Of a DNA stretch of 64,000 bases, positions 2,834 to 52,942 are shown one piece after another (position 1 is the stretch's first letter; every line of letters begins with the position of its first letter). A program made the position numbers and the translations under genes. The stretch comes from Actinomycetota bacterium (GTDB taxonomy: Bacteria > Actinomycetota > Acidimicrobiia > Acidimicrobiales > Microtrichaceae), in the NCBI GenBank assembly GCA_016870275.1, contig VGBZ01000005.1, positions 50,552 through 114,551 on the forward strand, given 5' to 3'. The notes under the pieces were generated by a model. It was not told the DNA's origin. It ran no database searches and saw nothing but the letters and a program-made list of their open reading frames with translations.

Positions 2834-4093
2834 TCAGAATCGCCGGGCGAAGACGCGCATGATCCCGGCGCCGACGGCCATCATGAATCCGATCACGATC
2901 GTTGACGGATCAAATGCGAGGTCGCCGAGGATCGGCGGCCCCTGTGTTGTTCCGAGCGGGTTGACCTCTGATCCGACCACTCCGGCGATCGAACAGATCA
3001 CCAGGAAGACGCCAACGGCCTGCACCACGGCGAGCATCGGAACGAGGACGAACGACGCCACGGTGCCGCCGACGGTCATGGGCGAGTCGTACGGGTTCTT
3101 CGGCCCGACGAGTCGGAACGCCAGACGGCGAATGAGGGTGACCACACTCGCAGCAACGATCAGCACTCCGAGCAGCAGAGCGATCGGCACCGCAGCCCGG
3201 AACGGTGAGGACGCGCCGACCACCTGCTCGATCGCAGCATCGGTGAGGTCCGACTGTTGGAAGTCGGCGCCGGTCACGATCGCCCCGGTCAGGTCGGCTC
3301 CGCTCAGGTCCGACTGGGTGAACGAGCTGTTGCTCAGGTCGGCCTTCCGCATGTCCGCTGACTGGAAGTACGACTGGGATGCGGTCACGGAGCGCAGGTC
3401 GGCCCCGGTCAGCGTCGCCTCGTTCAGGTAGGTCTGGACCAGATAGGCGTCGGGCAGGAGGGCGTCGGTGAGATCGGCGCCGTTCAACTCGGACTGGGTG
3501 AACTCAGAGTCGCTGGCATCCACCCCGACCATGAGGGCGCCCGTCAGATCGACCTGCGTGAACTCGACGTCGAGCATCGTGGCTCCGACCAGGTCCGCTC
3601 CGGGCAACTCGACCTGCCCGAGGGCCGTGGAGCTGATCTGCACACCGCGCAGGTCGGCACCCTGCAGTTGTGTCTGCGTCATCGTGCCGCTCCGAATCGT
3701 CGTGTCCCGGAGGACCGCACCCCGCAGGTTGGTCTGGGTGAAGTTGACGGACACGAGCGTCGCTCCGCTCAGGTTGGCGCCGTTGAGGTCTGCCTGCGTG
3801 AGGTCGATCCCGGTCATCATCGCCCCCTGCAGGTTGGCGCAACGAAGGTCGATTGAGCTGGGTGCCAGAGGGAGTGGGTTCGTGTTGAAGTCACGCCCCG
3901 GCGCCTGCAGCGGCTCGGCGGGACAGATGATGGCGTCGTCGCCGGATGGCTCCTGAGCGGTCGCCGGTGCTGCGGGCCCACACGCCAGCAGGACGATCAG
4001 TGCCGTGACGCCAGTGCTGGTGAGTGCGCGTCGCCGGGTACCGGACTTGGTGGTCGATCCCATGCCGAGGGGAGCAACGAGCCCGCCGTTCAT
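2834..4093 (-). CDS. exported pentapeptide-repeat protein with N-terminal signal/lipobox and C-terminal transmembrane segments
   Basis: ORF 2834..4585, with a probable ATG at 4093 (MNGGLVAPLGMGSTTKSGTRRRALTSTGVTALIVLLAC...). It has about 55 consecutive A(D/N)LXX pentapeptide units (ANLQGAMMTGIDLTQADLNGANLSGATL...). About 3 hydrophobic helices follow at the C-terminus. Confidence 0.8.
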   Translation of the reverse strand: MNGGLVAPLGMGSTTKSGTRRRALTSTGVTALIVLLACGPAAPATAQEPSGDDAIICPAEPLQAPGRDFNTNPLPLAPSSIDLRCANLQGAMMTGIDLTQADLNGANLSGATLVSVNFTQTNLRGAVLRDTTIRSGTMTQTQLQGADLRGVQISSTALGQVELPGADLVGATMLDVEFTQVDLTGALMVGVDASDSEFTQSELNGADLTDALLPDAYLVQTYLNEATLTGADLRSVTASQSYFQSADMRKADLSNSSFTQSDLSGADLTGAIVTGADFQQSDLTDAAIEQVVGASSPFRAAVPIALLLGVLIVAASVVTLIRRLAFRLVGPKNPYDSPMTVGGTVASFVLVPMLAVVQAVGVFLVICSIAGVVGSEVNPLGTTQGPPILGDLAFDPSTIVIGFMMAVGAGIMRVFARRF

Positions 4094-4149
4094 GACAGCT
4101 TTCTGCGTTCCAGTTGAACTTTTGTGGCGTCGCACTGCGTCGCCCGGCC

Positions 4150-5076
4150 TCACCGTTGCCTCGCCTCCGGTGTCGAGGCGATGAATCCGCTGACGATCTC
4201 GACGAGTTGGTCGCTGCAGTCCTCCTGCAGGAAGTGACCGCCGCCGGTGACCGTCGTGTGCGGTTGGCCGGCGGCCCCGGGGATCCGCTCTCGGATCGCC
4301 CGGTCGGCGCCGGCGGTGATCGGGTCGCTGTCGCTGAAGGCGCACAGCACAGGGCGTTCGAAGCGCTCGAGTTCCTCCCATGCCGCTCGGTTTGCGGGAG
4401 CCTCCGGATCGTCCGGCGAGGCTGGGACCAGCGTGGGGAACTGTCGGGCCCCGGCCACGTAGGTCTGGTCGGGGAAGGGTGCGTCGTAGGCGGCGAGCGC
4501 CCCGTCGGTCAGGGCCGAGACACACCCCATCGCCACCACGGCGCTCGAGGAGAACTCCGGGACATTCTGAGAGAAGTCCCGCCACATCCTGAATGCATCA
4601 CCGGGGTCACGGTCGCCGGTGGGCAGGAAGGTGTTGGCCACGACGAGGCGGTCGAAGCGGTCGGGCCGGGCGGCCACGAGTCGCAGGCCGATCAGGCCAC
4701 CCCAGTCCTGACAGAACAGCGTCACGTGTTGCAGATCGAGTGCCTCGAGCCACTGGGTCATCCACTCGACGTGGCGTGCGTAGGTGTAGTCGCTGCGTTC
4801 AGCGGGTTTGTCGGATCGACCGAAGCCGATCAGGTCCGGGGCCACGACCCGGTGTCCCGCTGCCACGAGCCCGGCGATCATCGTGCGGTAGAGGTACGAC
4901 CACGACGGCTCCCCGTGCATCAACAGGATCGGATCCGTGTCGCTCGGCCCCTCGTCCACGCAGGCCACCCGCAGTTCGGTGCCGTCGACCGGGTCGGTGA
5001 CCGTCACGTACCGGGGCTCGAACGGCCAACCGGGCAGGCCGTCGAAGCGTTCGTCGGGGGTTCTCAGGACGCGCAT
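4150..5076 (-). CDS. haloalkane dehalogenase-type alpha/beta hydrolase (HLD-I-like)
   Basis: The N-terminus RTPDERFDGLPGWPFEPRYV...LLMHGEPSWSYLYR, the nucleophile motif CQDWGG and the C-terminal GGHFLQED are the hallmark blocks of haloalkane dehalogenases as I recall them. Confidence 0.8.
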   Translation of the reverse strand: MRVLRTPDERFDGLPGWPFEPRYVTVTDPVDGTELRVACVDEGPSDTDPILLMHGEPSWSYLYRTMIAGLVAAGHRVVAPDLIGFGRSDKPAERSDYTYARHVEWMTQWLEALDLQHVTLFCQDWGGLIGLRLVAARPDRFDRLVVANTFLPTGDRDPGDAFRMWRDFSQNVPEFSSSAVVAMGCVSALTDGALAAYDAPFPDQTYVAGARQFPTLVPASPDDPEAPANRAAWEELERFERPVLCAFSDSDPITAGADRAIRERIPGAAGQPHTTVTGGGHFLQEDCSDQLVEIVSGFIASTPEARQR

Positions 5077-5187
5077 GGCCCGACCCTAAGCGCGGAGCGG
5101 GTCACGCCTGGGCGGTTGCGAGGGAGGAGGGTTCCCGCCCGGCTCAGGAGCGGCCGGTGACCGTCTGGACCGAGGTGGGATTGGCGG

Positions 5188-6267
5188 TCACCAGCCGGCG
5201 CGGGCCGCCGCCGCCAGGATCTCCTCCGTCACCAGCTCGGGCTGCTGGAGGAAGAAGTAGTGAGGGCCGCCCGAGACGATCTCGATCCGGGCCGAGGGCA
5301 CCGCCGCGCGCAGGGGGTCCGCCCCGGCGACCCGCTTGACCTCAGCCAGTCGTCCGGCGCAGTCGCGCAGTGACTCCCGGACCTCCGGCGTGGCCAGCGC
5401 CGACAACGGGAAGGCAGCCGCCGGATCAGCGTCGTCGCCGATGAGGGCCGTCACCGGGACGTCGATCCCCGTGTAGTCGGGGCCCACGGCGTTCGTCCCC
5501 TCGTTGATCCCGGCCTCGGCCACGCTCCGGTCGATCGCCTGGATCGACCCGTTCGGCGTGGGTACGACCTGACGGCGCAGCTCGCTCGGCGGGATCGGTG
5601 CCCCGAGGACCGCCTCCTGCTGTCGGGCGGCGGCGGCCATGCTCACCAGCTCGAGCTGGCCGTCGATCATCTGGACCTCATCGGGACCGAACTCCAGGAC
5701 CTGGTCGGCCGTCGGTGCGAGCGGGAGGCACTCGTCGAAGACTGCGGTCGATGGGTCGGTCCGGTCGAAGGCAGCATCCAGGTAGACGAGCCCCACGGGC
5801 AGGTCCGGTCGGGTCCGGGCGATCCCCGTCATCTCGTCCCCGGCGATGGAGTGCCCGACGATCAGCGCCCGGTCGATCCCGAGTGCGTCGAGTGCCGCCA
5901 GGTCGTCGGCCACCCGGGTGGCCACGTCGTAGCCGTCCTCGGTGGTCGTCGATCCTCCGTAGCCGCGACGGGTCAGGCCGATCACACGGTGGTCGGCCGT
6001 GAGACGGGGTGCCAGGTCGTCGAAGACGGCGGCGGAGTTGCCCAAGCCGGTCAGCAGGACGATCGGCGGGCCGTCCCCGCCCCAGTCCCGGTACTCGAGC
6101 TCGACCCCGTCGGCGACCCGTACCAGGCCGACCTCGGGGAACTCGCCGGTCGGTGTGGCGAGCGGCGTGTCGATGCCCGGGACATCCTCGGTGCAGCCCG
6201 CACCCGTGATCGCCACGACGAGGGCTGCGGTTGCGATCACGGCTCGCTTGAACTGACGCTGTGTCAC
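5188..6267 (-). CDS. secreted (possible lipoprotein) alpha/beta hydrolase
   Basis: Signal peptide with a Cys (MTQRQFKRAVIATAALVVAITGAGC), an LLTGLGNS oxyanion region and a GHSIAG nucleophile elbow. Confidence 0.75.
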   Translation of the reverse strand: MTQRQFKRAVIATAALVVAITGAGCTEDVPGIDTPLATPTGEFPEVGLVRVADGVELEYRDWGGDGPPIVLLTGLGNSAAVFDDLAPRLTADHRVIGLTRRGYGGSTTTEDGYDVATRVADDLAALDALGIDRALIVGHSIAGDEMTGIARTRPDLPVGLVYLDAAFDRTDPSTAVFDECLPLAPTADQVLEFGPDEVQMIDGQLELVSMAAAARQQEAVLGAPIPPSELRRQVVPTPNGSIQAIDRSVAEAGINEGTNAVGPDYTGIDVPVTALIGDDADPAAAFPLSALATPEVRESLRDCAGRLAEVKRVAGADPLRAAVPSARIEIVSGGPHYFFLQQPELVTEEILAAAARAGW

Positions 6268-49534: not shown

Positions 49535-50701
49535 GTGGGACCACTACAGGGCATGAAGATCATCGAGGTCGCCGGGATCGGTCCCGGGCCGTTCGTGGCG
49601 ATGATGCTCTCCGACATGGGGGCGGACGTCATCCGGGTCGATCGAGCCGACCGGGCGGCCACCGGTGCGCCGTCGGCGCCACCCGTCGACGTCCTCAATC
49701 GCGGCCGGCGATCCGTGGCGATCGACCTCAAGTCACCCGAGGGCGTCGAGGTCCTCCTCGAACTCGTCGAACACGCCGATGCGCTGATCGAGGGGTTTCG
49801 ACCCGGTGTCACCGAACGACTCGGCTTTGGGCCCGAGGTGTGCCGGCAACGCAACCCGCGGCTCGTCTACGGACGGATGACCGGCTGGGGCCAGGAGGGT
49901 CCGTACTCCCAGACCGCCGGTCACGACATCAACTACATCGCCCTCGCCGGCGTGCTCGCCCATCTCGGTCGGGCCGATCAGCAGCCCACGCCACCCATCA
50001 ACCTCGTCGGCGACTTCGGTGGCGGCGCCATGTTGCTCGCATTCGGTCTCGTCTGCGGACTGCTCGAAGCCCAGCGATCCGGAGAAGGGCAGGTGGTCGA
50101 CGCGGCCATGGTCGACGGGTCGGCGTTGCTGATGACGATGATGTGGGCGTTCACGGCGATGGGGATCTGGACCGAGGAGCGTGGGGTGAACCTGCTCGAT
50201 ACCGGTGCCCACTTCTACGACACGTATCGATGCAGCGACGGCGAGTACGTGTCGATCGGTTCGATCGAGTCGCAGTTCTACGCTCAACTCGTCGAGCTCA
50301 CCGGTCTCGCCGATGACTATGCGTCCCGTGGCGAGGAACTCCCGCACCAGATGGATCGATCGCACTGGGGCGAACTGCGGGAACGACTCGCAGCCATCTT
50401 CGCCACCAAGACCCGTCAGGAGTGGTGCGAGATCATGGAGGGGACCGATGTCTGCTTCGCCCCCGTGCTCACGATGAGCGAGGCCCTCGAGCATCCGCAC
50501 AACGTCGAACGCCAGACGTTCGTCGAGGTGGCGGGAGTCACCCAGCCGGCACCGGCGCCGCGGTTCAGTCGAACACCCGGGGCGATCCAGCGTCCCCCGT
50601 CGCACGAGGGCCAGCACACCGACGAGGTGCTCACCGAGTGGCTCGGGGTCGATCCGGATCGGCTCAGCGAACTGCGGTCCGACGGGGTCGTCGCTGGTTG
50701 A
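49535..50701 (+). CDS. mcr: family III CoA-transferase fold, alpha-methylacyl-CoA racemase-like
   Basis: [37 protein letters not shown] closely parallels the N-terminus of M. tuberculosis Mcr as I recall it. [11 protein letters not shown] is also present. Confidence 0.8.
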
Positions 50702-50710
50702 GCGCCGAGT

Positions 50711-52090
50711 TCACACCGGGACGCTGATCCGATCGAACACCTCGGTCGCCTCGGCGATGATCAGCTCGTCGTCCGCGGCCTCCAACACCAACGCCGCGTC
50801 GCCGGCCGTGGTGGCCACCACGACCGGTGCCCCCGTGGCCTCGTCGAGGTTGATCCACTCGGCGAATCGTCCCCGGTCGGCGCCCCACCACCCGGTCACC
50901 AGCGTCGACGGCCAGCGTTGATTGGGAACGGTCGGCTCGAAGGTGAGCACGGTCTTGTCGAGGGTGCCGGTGCGAAGCCGATCGGCCGCGTCCCGCCAGG
51001 TGGCCGGCACCGGCCCGTCCAGGAGTGGCAGGCCCGCCTGCAGCAGGGCCAGCGGCACGGTGAGGATGACGGCATCGGCGCGCTCGGAGAACCGGGGACC
51101 GTCGACCTGTGCCCCGGAACCCTCGCCGGTCCAGGTGATGCGGTCCACCGGGGCGTCGGTACGCAGGTCGATGCCGGCGGTGAGCGGTTCGAGGATCCGG
51201 TCGAAGCCGCCGACGACCAACAGGTCGCCGCCGACGAGGTCGTCACCTTCGTTCCATCCGGCAACGCTGAGAGTCGTGGCTGAGAGCGCTGACTCGCCTT
51301 CGATGTCGCTGGCGACCAGGCGGTCGACGGCGGCGGTGGTCTCGTCGTCGAGGCCGAGCCGGGCGACCGACTCCGCCACCGCCTGTTCGACTGAAAGTTC
51401 CTGAAGGTCCTCGTCCTCGGCGAGTTGTTCGAGCGTCGCAGCGAACGCCTCCCGAGCCCTCGAGTCGTCCCGGGCTCCGTCGTCGGCGACGACGCGACTG
51501 TCGTCCCAGTTGAATGGGACCGTGGCCACGCCGGCGAGTCGGGCCGACTCGACGAGCGGGTTGTCGGCGGCTCCGTGGATCCACGCCGCCCCGAGCTCGA
51601 TCGGCACCCCGCTGGACCGGTCGGTGAGCACCCGGCCGTAGGGTCGAGGTCGGGCCTCGAGCACAGTGACGGAGTGCGTGGGCGCGAGCCTGGCCGCCGC
51701 AGCGAGTCCGGCCGCTCCCGCTCCGATGACGATCACTCGTCCACCGGCGGCGATGTCGGCTGCGACCTCGGCCGCTGCTCGTTCGCCCGAGGCCAGCGCC
51801 CCGTGCACTGTGGCCGGGGCCTCGGTGGACGTCGCTTCACCGGCCACATGGATCGGTCCGAACGATTCGCCGAGCCGCAACCGATCGGTGGGCGAGGCTC
51901 CGATCGGCACGGCGCTGTAGCTCCCGAGCGACCATGGGTCGGACGCCCACCGGGTGACGATTGCACCGGTCGGCCTCACGGCGGGTTCCGATCGGCTGCA
52001 TCCGAGCGCCGTCACGGCGAGCGTGCCCAGACCGCCGAGGACGATTCGCCGTGTCGGCGCCACGTGGCCACCGTAGGCCACGGGGCACAA
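50711..52090 (-). CDS. flavin-containing amine oxidase with circularly permuted module order and an N-terminal export (Tat-like/lipobox-like) signal
   Basis: After [20 protein letters not shown] comes the normally C-terminal block [13 protein letters not shown]...[11 protein letters not shown]...[12 protein letters not shown]. Only then comes the dinucleotide-binding start [18 protein letters not shown]...VTVLEAR. The start codon is uncertain (TTG 52090, GTG 52081 or GTG 52063). Confidence 0.7.
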
Positions 52091-52105
52091 CTACTGTCAC
52101 CGGAC

Positions 52106-52942
52106 ATGTCCACGATCGTGTCATTCCATGCTCATCCCGACGACGAGTGCATCGTTTCCGGGGGAACGCTCGCTGCTGCGCACGCCGAGGGTCATCGGAC
52201 CGTGCTCGTCGTGGCCACACGGGGCGAACTCGGCGAGGTGGCGCCGGGCGTGCTTGAGGAGGGCGAGACACTGGCGGAGCGGCGCACGGGGGAACTCCTC
52301 GACGCCGCGCGAATCCTCGGGATCGACCGGGTGGAGTTCCTCGGATACCTCGACTCAGGAGTCGTCGGGGCCGAGAGCAACGAAGCTGATGGTTCGTTCT
52401 GGTCGGCGGACCCTGAGGCGGCGGCCGAGCGACTCGCAGCGATCCTCGACTCCGAGGAACCCGACGTCCTCACCGTCTACGACGACCACGGTGGGTACGG
52501 GCACCCCGACCACATCCAGGTGCACCGGGTCGGTCACCGGGCTGCAGCGTTGAGCGGGGTGCCGCGCGTCCTCGAGGTGACGATGAACCGCGACCACATC
52601 CGCAACCTGCTCGGCCGCAAGCCGGCCGACGCAGTCCGACGTTCGGTTCGTGGGATGCTCCCCAAGAACCGACTCGGCCGGCAGATGCTGCGCAAGCTCA
52701 AGGTCTATGCCGGCCCGTTCGGCTCGCCCGAGGAGATCATCACCCATGCGATCGACGTGTCGGCCTGGCTCGGTGCCAAGCGGGCCGCCATGGCCGCTCA
52801 CGCCAGTCAGATCCCGGCCGACTCCTGGTTCCTGCAACTCCCGGACGACGCGTTCGCCGCTGCGTTCGGCACCGAGTGGTACATCGATCCGAGCTCGCCG
52901 CGGGCCGCCGGTGATGGGTTCATCGATTCCATCTGGCGTTGA
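52106..52942 (+). CDS. PIG-L/LmbE-family deacetylase carrying an internal L13-like segment
   Basis: ATG at 52106 within ORF 51425..52942. Blocks [16 protein letters not shown] (PIG-L zinc motif AHPDDE), GGYGHPDH and C-terminal [10 protein letters not shown]. Confidence 0.8.

What the first reader, a model, noticed from the sequence alone, without database searches (positions are those of the whole stretch)
50711..52090. Flavin amine oxidase with circularly permuted domain order behind an export signal
In canonical flavin amine oxidases, the GxGxxG dinucleotide-binding start is N-terminal. The W..DP...G.YS / ...FAGE.T......G.V.GA..SG..AA block is at the extreme C-terminus. Here a single uninterrupted ORF reads in a different order. 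First comes a signal-like [21 protein letters not shown]. Then comes [18 protein letters not shown]...[40 protein letters not shown]. Then comes [37 protein letters not shown]...ELGAAWIHG. The protein ends (...[31 protein letters not shown]) where the W..DP block would normally follow. This is what a clean circular permutation looks like, for example via tandem duplication plus end trimming. The RR-containing signal and the Cys also suggest Tat export or lipidation of an FAD enzyme.
Basis: partly seen in the sequence, partly recalled or inferred. Interest (0 to 1): 0.6.

Follow-up and report, generated by a model that had tools for sequence, protein, structure and literature searches.

The report
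Circularly permuted, exported flavin amine oxidase
This gene encodes an intact flavin amine oxidase whose usual last ~75 residues sit at the front of the chain behind an export signal; hundreds of bacterial relatives share this order, and I found no paper describing it, but it is a re-ordering of a well-known enzyme fold, not a new kind of enzyme.

Summary
The 459-aa ORF (50711-52090, minus strand) reads the Pfam Amino_oxidase profile in rotated order. Residues 39-109 match profile positions 371-442 of 443. Residues 127-453 match positions 2-362.

It is not an artefact or a fusion remnant:
- Two independent metagenome assemblies carry the same uninterrupted gene.
- About 100 of the 120 nearest protein clusters, and 72 of the 80 best species genomes, have the same order. 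These include Streptomyces, Pseudomonas, Oceanicaulis and a cyanobacterium.
- AlphaFold2 folds the protein confidently (pLDDT 91), with the relocated block at pLDDT 96-98.
- The block is under stronger purifying selection than the rest of the protein.

A tree with all permuted proteins in one clade is not rejected, so a single origin is possible.

A twin-arginine leader with a lipobox-like cysteine precedes the block, and the genome encodes TatC, Lgt and LspA. The most likely product is a Tat-exported, lipid-anchored, FAD-dependent oxidase of the polyamine-oxidase/LSD branch. The substrate is unknown and gene context gives no hint.

I found no published description. The same family was already noted at least 17 times in this scan. 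I rate it a new variant of a known kind, of moderate interest.

The parts
50711..52090 (-). Whole ORF: 459 aa plus stop (50711-50713). Alternative starts are GTG 52081 and GTG 52063.
   Evidence: Pfam Amino_oxidase scores 176 bits against a cut-off of 19.8.
52001..52090 (-). Leader, residues 1-30. It holds a twin-arginine motif (T-R-R-I-V-L, R14-R15 at 52046-52051) and a hydrophobic stretch ending A-L-G before Cys31 (51998-52000). Predicted Tat lipoprotein signal.
   Evidence: Sequence read. R14 and R15 are at least 90% conserved in the family alignment. An RR motif is present in 127 of 148 permuted leaders, 70 of them with a lipobox-like Cys. pLDDT is below 50, as expected for a signal peptide.
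51755..51976 (-). Relocated block, residues 39-112. It is the canonical C-terminal FAD-binding and active-site segment: W48..D51P..G56.Y58S, the strand HVAGE (G84, E85), and the final helix 95-112.
   Evidence: Matches Pfam profile positions 371-442 of 443, E 7.9e-18. Matches LSD1 chain residues 569-662 and P0075 residues 387-454 at 53% identity. pLDDT 96-98. dN/dS 0.26. W48, D51, Y58, G84, E85, G97, A98, S101 and G102 are invariant.
51740..51754 (-). Five-residue linker (I-A-A-G-G, residues 113-117) joining the old C-terminal helix to the old N-terminal strand beta-1.
   Evidence: Secondary structure of the AF2 model: helix 95-112, then strand 118-122.
51632..51739 (-). Rossmann beta-alpha-beta, residues 118-153: GAGAAG (G123, G125, G128), E145 at the end of beta-2, and the R-x-G-G-R-type motif, which here reads R-P-Y-G-R.
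   Evidence: Pfam NAD_binding_8, E 4.9e-13. Invariant G123, G125, G128, E145, R149, G152 and R153. Strand 118-122, helix 126-135, strand 140-144.
50714..51631 (-). Remainder of the FAD and substrate domains, residues 154-459. It includes ELGAAWIHG (W170, H172) and the conserved Lys379 (50954-50956) in L-D-K. It ends in helix 441-455, exactly where the W..DP block follows in canonical enzymes.
   Evidence: Matches Pfam profile positions 2-362. K379 is at least 90% conserved and aligns with the L-N-K lysine of LSD1. Foldseek aligns about 365 columns to LSD2 at rmsd 2.8 Å.

Best explanation
The gene encodes a complete, functional-looking FAD-dependent amine oxidase of the polyamine-oxidase / spermine-oxidase / LSD branch in a naturally circularly permuted form.

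Order of the chain:
- A twin-arginine lipoprotein-type leader.
- The segment that is C-terminal in all characterised relatives: the W..DP..G.YS loop carrying an active-site tyrosine, the AGE strand, and the last helix.
- A five-residue linker.
- Rossmann strand beta-1 with GxGxxG.
- The rest of the FAD and substrate domains. The chain ends at the helix that normally precedes the W..DP block.

In three dimensions, the old last strand and helix together with the Rossmann beta-alpha-beta form one continuous beta-alpha-beta-alpha-beta run. The fold and the active site are therefore expected to be unchanged.

Shown here: the permutation, its conservation, and the structural plausibility.

Inferred:
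- The enzyme binds FAD non-covalently in the cytoplasm.
- It is exported folded by the Tat pathway.
- It is lipidated on Cys31 and sits on the outer face of the membrane.
- There it oxidises an amine with O2, giving an imine (hydrolysed to an aldehyde) and H2O2. The substrate is probably a polyamine-like secondary amine.

The gene belongs to a large family, mainly in Actinomycetota but also in Pseudomonadota and Cyanobacteriota, that may stem from a single permutation event.
For: Rotated match: shown by Pfam, PDB phmmer and BLASTP to a canonical sister.

Conservation of the order:
- About 100 of 120 nearest 90%-identity clusters share it.
- So do 64 of the best 150 representatives of a 1.84-billion-protein library.
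- So do 72 of the 80 best species genomes.
- Eleven collinear hits occur among 40 close relatives.

Independent assemblies from JGI and ENA carry the same gene in the same slot.

Structure:
- AF2 gives pLDDT 91.3 and pTM 0.89, with the block at pLDDT 96-98.
- Foldseek aligns the query to LSD2 over about 365 columns (TMq 0.67).
- A canonical sister model aligns to LSD2 over 442 columns (TMq 0.88).
- The difference of about 75 columns equals the length of the relocated block.
- The secondary-structure elements are the same in rotated order.

Selection and residues:
- dN/dS is 0.26 for the block and 0.46 for the core.
- Invariant FAD and active-site residues occur in both parts.
- The query keeps 60 of 65 highly conserved positions.

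Single origin not rejected: the constrained tree has a higher likelihood than the free trees, with p-AU 0.975 and 0.568.

Export: RR motif statistics, and TatC, Lgt and LspA in the genome.
Against: - No biochemical data exist for any member that I could find.
- The substrate is a guess based on the nearest solved relatives and on the WIHG and PATVHGA motifs.
- The query's Tat motif (TRRIVL) and lipobox (A-L-G-C) are looser than the consensus, and no dedicated signal predictor was available.
- The query's subclade has Y or F in place of the first Gly of the R-x-G-G-R FAD motif. The effect of this change is unknown.
- The free trees interleave a few canonical and permuted sequences (8 label changes). 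More than one event cannot be excluded.
- The outgroup root is unresolved.
Confidence: 0.85

Rival explanations
1. Artefact or decay product: an assembly chimera, or a pseudogene-like fusion of the 3' remnant of one amine oxidase gene with a 3'-truncated second copy.
For: The window comes from a fragmented metagenome-assembled genome of 137 contigs. The order of the parts is what such a fusion would give.
Against: - The same architecture is found in hundreds of independent sequences and in cultured strains.
- Two independent assemblies carry the identical arrangement.
- There is purifying selection on both parts.
- The AF2 model is confident.
- No second block remnant follows the stop: only 9 bp separate it from the convergent CoA-transferase gene.
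Confidence: 0.01
2. The protein is permuted and functional but cytoplasmic. On this view the N-terminal 30 residues are not a working Tat or lipoprotein signal, for example because translation starts elsewhere or the motif is too degenerate.
For: - The query motif T-R-R-I-V-L-G departs from S/T-R-R-x-F-L-K.
- The lipobox A-L-G-C is non-canonical at position -3.
- The Pseudomonas putida member has no leader at all, so export is not obligatory for the permuted fold.
- About 14% of permuted leaders lack an RR motif.
Against: - R14 and R15 are at least 90% conserved across the family alignment.
- 86% of permuted leaders carry RR followed by a hydrophobic stretch.
- The close relatives P0002, P0003 and P0004 keep a Cys after the hydrophobic stretch.
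- There is no alternative start downstream of the leader and before the conserved block.
- TatC, Lgt and LspA are present in the genome.
Confidence: 0.12
3. The permuted order arose several times, or reverted, within this subfamily, rather than once.
For: Both free trees need 8 label changes, and the starred branches of the quick tree force at least 3. A few canonical proteins sit inside the mostly permuted group and the reverse also occurs, and their architectures are correctly assigned.
Against: - The topology with all permuted proteins together has a higher likelihood than both free trees (difference in lnL +181 and +13.6) and is not rejected (p-AU 0.975 and 0.568).
- The break point is the same in all members examined: after the ...L..(F/Y)G helix and before (V)PxP...VTRW.
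- Backbone supports are weak.
Confidence: 0.2

Closest known systems
Flavin polyamine / spermine oxidases and the amine-oxidase domain of LSD1/LSD2 (Pfam PF01593; PDB 4fwe, 4hsu, 7xe3 for LSD2; 2v1d and others for LSD1; 7oxl SMOX; 5lae PAOX; 1b37 maize PAO; 1rsg Fms1)
   Same: - Best sequence matches in the PDB are LSD1 at 4e-34, LSD2 at 3.5e-32, SMOX at 2e-25 and PAOX at 1e-21.
- Best fold matches are LSD2 at E 3e-24 with rmsd 2.8 Å, and maize PAO.
- It has the same GxGxxG Rossmann motif, acidic residue at the end of beta-2, ELGA.WIHG motif, L-(D/N)-K lysine, G.YS tyrosine, and AGE...PATVHGA..SG helix motif.
   Different: - Chain order is rotated: the last ~75 residues come first.
- It has a bacterial Tat/lipoprotein leader.
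- It lacks the SWIRM, Tower and zinc-finger domains of LSD1/2.
- Substrate and activity are untested.
Canonical-order bacterial Tat-leader amine oxidases of the same subfamily (for example P0075, P0005, P0015, and the Ideonella loci L067 and L074)
   Same: - 30-53% identity over every segment.
- Same length.
- Also mostly carry RR leaders: 70 of 88.
- The AF2 model of P0075 aligns to LSD2 with TMq 0.88.
- They form the sister group in the tree.
   Different: The leader is followed directly by the Rossmann strand, and the W..DP block is at the C-terminus.
Natural circular permutants in other protein families (general phenomenon; from my own knowledge, for example concanavalin A versus favin, swaposins, some DNA methyltransferases, GH70 glucansucrases)
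   Same: The same fold is read from a different starting point. The old termini are joined by a short linker, and the new termini lie in a surface loop.
   Different: - I found no report of this for flavin amine oxidases.
- The N-terminal export signal is retained in front of the relocated block, which a plain duplicate-fuse-trim route does not give.

Membership tests
Flavin-containing amine oxidoreductase (Pfam PF01593) | Whole-protein HMM score above the gathering threshold | tested here: met
   176.4 bits against a cut-off of 19.8, E 1.6e-51.
Flavin-containing amine oxidoreductase (Pfam PF01593) | N-terminal dinucleotide-binding beta-alpha-beta with GxGxxG and an acidic residue at the end of beta-2 | tested here: met
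   G123, G125, G128 and E145 are invariant. NAD_binding_8 matches at 4.9e-13. The motif is present but starts at residue 118, not at the N-terminus.
Flavin-containing amine oxidoreductase (Pfam PF01593) | Conserved FAD-binding and active-site block (W..DP..G.YS ... AGE ... G.V.GA..SG) located at the C-terminus, collinear with the profile | tested here: not met
   The block is present and highly conserved, but it lies at residues 39-112, before the Rossmann motif. The profile is read as positions 371-442 and then 2-362. The sequence features are met and the collinear order is not. This is the permutation.
Flavin-containing amine oxidoreductase (Pfam PF01593) | Conserved lysine near flavin N5 (Lys300 of maize PAO, Lys661 of LSD1; residue numbers from my own knowledge) | tested here: met
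   K379 in L-D-K aligns with L-N-K of LSD1 and is at least 90% conserved in the family.
Flavin-containing amine oxidoreductase (Pfam PF01593) | FAD binding and amine:O2 oxidoreductase activity | not testable with these tools
   Needs expression and an assay.
Natural circular permutant of a known fold | Two contiguous segments homologous to a reference family in swapped order, covering the whole domain without duplication | tested here: met
   No second copy of the block is present in the ORF or after its stop.
Natural circular permutant of a known fold | Same three-dimensional fold, shown by a permutation-aware superposition | tested here: inconclusive
   - The AF2 model is confident (pLDDT 91, block at 96-98).
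- Its secondary-structure elements match the canonical sister in rotated order.
- The sequential Foldseek alignment falls short of the canonical control by exactly the block length: 365 against 442 columns.
Tat-exported lipoprotein | Twin-arginine motif, then a hydrophobic region, then a lipobox with an invariant Cys | tested here: met
   T-R-R-I-V-L, a 14-residue hydrophobic stretch, and A-L-G-C31. RR is at least 90% conserved. The fit is by motif only. The lipobox is loose at position -3, and no dedicated predictor was available.
Tat-exported lipoprotein | Host encodes the Tat translocase and the lipoprotein-processing enzymes | tested here: met
   TatC 216 bits, Lgt 121 and 77 bits (split over two contig ends), LspA 111 bits. 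All are over their cut-offs.
Tat-exported lipoprotein | Demonstrated Tat-dependent export and lipidation | not testable with these tools
   Needs reporter fusions in a wild-type laboratory strain and its tatC deletion mutant, plus globomycin.

The most novel reading that the evidence does not exclude
This gene belongs to an undescribed, single-origin family of flavin amine oxidases. It would be the first natural circular permutation reported for this heavily studied fold, spread over several bacterial phyla.

In this family the permutation makes the ADP-binding core of the FAD domain one contiguous N-terminal unit: the old last strand and helix followed by the Rossmann beta-alpha-beta. The most novel version of this reading is that the arrangement was selected because it allows early, co-translational FAD loading before Tat export.
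Probability: 0.12. Interest if true: 0.7.

Novelty: new variant of a known kind. Interest (0 to 1): 0.5.

Why it matters
Flavin amine oxidases (MAO, polyamine oxidases, LSD1) are among the best-studied flavoenzymes and are drug targets, and all described members share one chain order.

- A large natural family with rotated order shows where this fold tolerates new termini and a closed N-to-C junction. That is directly useful for protein engineering, such as split enzymes, sensors and fusions.
- It gives a natural experiment on how chain order affects FAD loading and folding before Tat export.
- It matters for annotation. Domain-order-sensitive pipelines may split these genes, flag them as fusions, or call them truncated.
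- Many carriers are abundant freshwater and marine Actinomycetota. A surface-exposed amine oxidase there may bear on the use of dissolved organic nitrogen, but this is speculation until a substrate is known.

Tried and rejected
- **Read-level confirmation.** I used independent assemblies instead.
- **Permutation-aware superposition.** Model coordinates are not exposed. I used a canonical control model and compared Foldseek coverage and secondary-structure order instead.
- **Duplication intermediates** (signal-block-core-block, or fused tandem copies). None occur among 266 retrieved proteins and 80 loci. The 912-aa P0176 is a canonical oxidase with an unrelated C-terminal repeat domain.
- **Gene context as a substrate hint.**
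  - The window's neighbours (CoA-transferase III, PIG-L deacetylase, small membrane protein, PEPCK) are shared only with close relatives.
  - Clustering all neighbours of 72 permuted loci gave no family present in more than 8 loci, and most clusters were spurious high-GC frames.
- **Curated family assignment.** No NCBIfam model reaches its cut-off. The best is HpnE at 52 bits against a cut-off of 283, and only over the Rossmann part.
- **Rooting with a MAO-like outgroup taken from L045.** The outgroup branch is very long (2.2) and the backbone support is weak, so the root is unresolved.
- **Literature.** Five full-text searches found no description of a permuted flavin amine oxidase. The library lacks most subscription journals, so this is absence of evidence only.
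- **dN/dS against the 97%-identical copy.** There are too few differences (20) to be informative.

Full report
**1. What is in the sequence**

A single open reading frame of 459 codons runs on the minus strand from 52090 to 50711.

There are three possible starts: TTG 52090, GTG 52081 and GTG 52063. The last gives [11 protein letters not shown]....

The neighbours are:
- a divergent PIG-L/LmbE-type deacetylase gene starting at 52106;
- a convergent family-III CoA-transferase gene ending at 50701, only 9 bp from the oxidase stop.

So no further amine-oxidase fragment lies on either side.

**2. The order really is rotated**

- The whole protein matches Pfam Amino_oxidase (PF01593) at 176 bits in two stretches.
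- Scanned separately, residues 39-109 match profile positions 371-442 of 443 (E 7.9e-18). Residues 127-453 match positions 2-362 (E 3.6e-35).
- phmmer against all PDB chains gives three significant, out-of-order stretches on human LSD1:
  - the Rossmann start (query 116-184 to chain 108-177);
  - the substrate domain (query 215-450 to chain 323-563);
  - the block (query 32-112 to chain 569-662).
- Against a canonical bacterial sister protein, P0075, the N-terminal block aligns to residues 387-454 at 53% identity (E 5e-18). The core aligns to residues 62-372 (E 1e-28).

The break lies after the helix that ends ...L..(F/Y)G and before (V)PxP...VTRW. The old termini are joined by five residues (I-A-A-G-G) between the last helix and Rossmann strand beta-1.

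**3. It is not an artefact, a remnant or a one-off**

How widespread the order is:
- Of the 120 nearest 90%-identity clusters in a 5.8-billion-protein collection, about 100 have the same order: a leader, the W..DP block near residue 45, and GxGxxG near residue 120. About 20 are canonical.
- An exhaustive search of 1.84 billion 50%-identity representatives found 12,625 homologs, 1,027 of them at E ≤ 1e-30. Of the best 150, 64 are permuted and 82 canonical.
- Among one genome per species, 72 of the 80 best loci are permuted.
  - Actinomycetota: Acidimicrobiia, Nanopelagicales, Thermoleophilia, Gaiellales, Streptomyces abyssalis, Kribbella and Euzebya.
  - Other phyla: Pseudomonas putida NBRC 14671, Oceanicaulis, a Sphingomonadaceae genome and the cyanobacterium Okeania.
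- In 40 close relatives of the window's genome, 11 have collinear full-length hits.
- In an even sample of 300 genomes of the phylum, about 5 are permuted and about 6 canonical.

Independent assemblies:
- A JGI metagenome contig carries the same uninterrupted gene at 97% identity.
- An ENA metagenome contig carries it at 62% identity.
- Both have it in the same slot: PEPCK, small membrane protein, PIG-L | oxidase | CoA-transferase.

Selection and conserved residues:
- Against the 62% ortholog, dN/dS is 0.26 for the relocated block and 0.46 for the core.
- Invariant residues lie in both parts. In the block these are W48, D51, Y58, G84, E85, G97, A98, S101 and G102. In the core they include G123, G125, G128, E145, R149, G152 and R153.
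- The query keeps 60 of 65 positions that are at least 90% conserved in the other members.

**4. Structure**

- AlphaFold2 with a 61-sequence alignment of permuted members gives mean pLDDT 91.3 and pTM 0.89.
  - Only residues 1-30, the leader, score low. The relocated block scores 96-98.
  - The element order is strand 80-82 (HVAGE), helix 95-112, strand 118-122 (beta-1), helix 126-135, strand 140-144.
  - This is one continuous beta-alpha-beta-alpha-beta run.
- Foldseek against the PDB finds LSD2 first (E 3e-24, rmsd 2.8 Å), then LSD1 and maize polyamine oxidase. It aligns only about 365 columns, with TMq 0.67.
- As a control I modelled the canonical sister P0075 (pLDDT 92.1). It aligns to the same LSD2 entries over 442 columns with TMq 0.88 and rmsd 2.0 Å.
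- The shortfall of about 75 columns equals the length of the relocated block. A sequential aligner should do exactly this with a true permutant.
- The C-terminal elements of P0075 are helix 365-380, strand 389-392, helix 414-421, strand 428-430 and helix 443-459. In the query they reappear as its last helix (441-455) followed, at the front of the chain, by strand 42-45, helix 68-74, strand 80-82 and helix 95-112.

**5. One origin or several**

I moved the block back to the C-terminus in 60 permuted representatives and aligned them with 82 canonical ones.

- The order label is strongly clustered: 8 changes against about 45 for shuffled labels.
- A careful search gives a mostly permuted group (52 permuted, 3 canonical) and a mostly canonical group (79 canonical, 6 permuted), with weak backbone support.
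- The exceptions are correctly classified.
- However, the best tree with all permuted proteins held together has a higher likelihood than both free trees. The difference in lnL is +181 against the quick tree and +13.6 against the careful tree. It is not rejected (p-AU 0.975 and 0.568).
- A single event is therefore the best-scoring hypothesis, but it is not proven.
- The root could not be fixed with the one distant outgroup at hand. All wider relatives (MAO, PAO, LSD) are canonical, so I take the permuted order as derived. That step is inference.

**6. How it arose**

- Canonical sisters also carry twin-arginine leaders directly before the Rossmann strand (70 of 88 leaders).
- A plain duplicate-fuse-trim route would lose the leader from the front and leave one between the old C- and N-termini. 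In the permuted proteins the leader is in front and the junction is only about 5-10 residues long.
- Additional in-frame deletions are therefore needed, or a different route, such as moving the 3' segment to just behind the leader.
- I found no intermediates. This step is open.

**7. Export**

- The leader reads T-R-R-I-V-L, then a 14-residue hydrophobic stretch, then A-L-G-C31.
- R14 and R15 are at least 90% conserved in the family.
- 127 of 148 permuted leaders have an RR motif, and 70 of those have a lipobox-like Cys.
- The genome encodes TatC, Lgt and LspA.
- Export of a folded, FAD-loaded enzyme by Tat, followed by lipid anchoring, is thus plausible. It is inferred from motifs only.
- Export is not tied to the permutation. 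Canonical sisters have leaders too, and the Pseudomonas putida permutant has none.

**8. Function**

- The nearest solved relatives are LSD1/LSD2, spermine oxidase, N-acetylpolyamine oxidase, Fms1 and maize PAO.
- Conserved features include the ELGAAWIHG motif, the L-D-K lysine (K379) that aligns with the L-N-K lysine of LSD1, Y58 in G-S-Y-S, and PATVHGA.
- From established knowledge of this family, the expected chemistry is FAD-dependent oxidation of a C-N bond with O2, giving H2O2.
- A polyamine-like substrate is my best guess, at roughly one in three.
- There is no cysteine at the MAO covalent-flavin position, so non-covalent FAD is expected. This is inference.
- Gene context gives no help. 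Neighbours are shared only among close relatives, and no neighbour family recurs across the permuted loci.

**9. Comparison with what is known**

- By sequence features this is a member of PF01593, in the PAO/LSD branch.
- It fails only the collinear-order feature, and that failure is the finding.
- No NCBIfam model covers it. Source names are generic: monoamine oxidase, polyamine oxidase, FAD-dependent oxidoreductase.
- Five full-text searches found no description of a permuted flavin amine oxidase. The library lacks most subscription journals.
- The notes of this scan list at least 17 earlier findings of the same architecture in other genomes, with follow-ups reaching the same conclusion. 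I treat these as agreement, not as independent evidence.

**10. Verdict**

- This is a new variant of a known kind: a natural circular permutation of a classic flavoenzyme fold, conserved and widespread.
- The likely product is an exported lipoprotein oxidase of unknown substrate.
- Interest is moderate (0.5). It is useful for fold-tolerance, engineering and annotation questions, but the chemistry is probably ordinary, and the family has already surfaced repeatedly in this scan.

Noticed in passing
window 52106-52942 (+), about 52583-52714: The neighbouring PIG-L/LmbE deacetylase has a significant Pfam Ribosomal_L13 match (E 3.2e-09) at its residues 160-203.
   Followed up: no
window 51638-51640 (residue 151): In the FAD-binding R-x-G-G-R motif, the first Gly is at least 90% conserved in the family. 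It is Tyr in the query and in P0001, and Phe in P0002 and P0003, so the change is specific to this subclade. Its effect on FAD binding is unknown.
   Followed up: partly
L066 (Pseudomonas putida NBRC 14671), about 4001-5236: This permuted member has no leader (MEKSVHRPTAWHVTHW...), so it is presumably cytoplasmic. It comes from a cultured strain and would be a convenient member to characterise.
   Followed up: no
L045:5098-6357 (-): Next to a permuted oxidase gene lies a second, canonical-order, MAO-like amine oxidase on the opposite strand. I used it as the outgroup.
   Followed up: partly
L042 / L005 (relative in the same family): The same neighbourhood (CoA-transferase, PIG-L, small membrane protein, PEPCK) is present. 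There CoA-transferase and PIG-L are directly adjacent, and a 36%-identical permuted oxidase sits between the membrane-protein gene and PEPCK. This points either to a local rearrangement or to a paralog inserted independently.
   Followed up: no
L015, L077, L078: Metagenome bins labelled 'Bifidobacterium breve' carry high-GC permuted oxidase genes typical of environmental Actinomycetota. The taxon labels look doubtful.
   Followed up: no
G000:C127:1571-1963 and G000:C34:4-318: The only Lgt gene of the genome is split across two contig ends. This is assembly fragmentation, not necessarily a broken gene.
   Followed up: no
window 52063-52108: The oxidase and the PIG-L gene diverge with only 15-42 bp between their possible start codons.
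   Followed up: no
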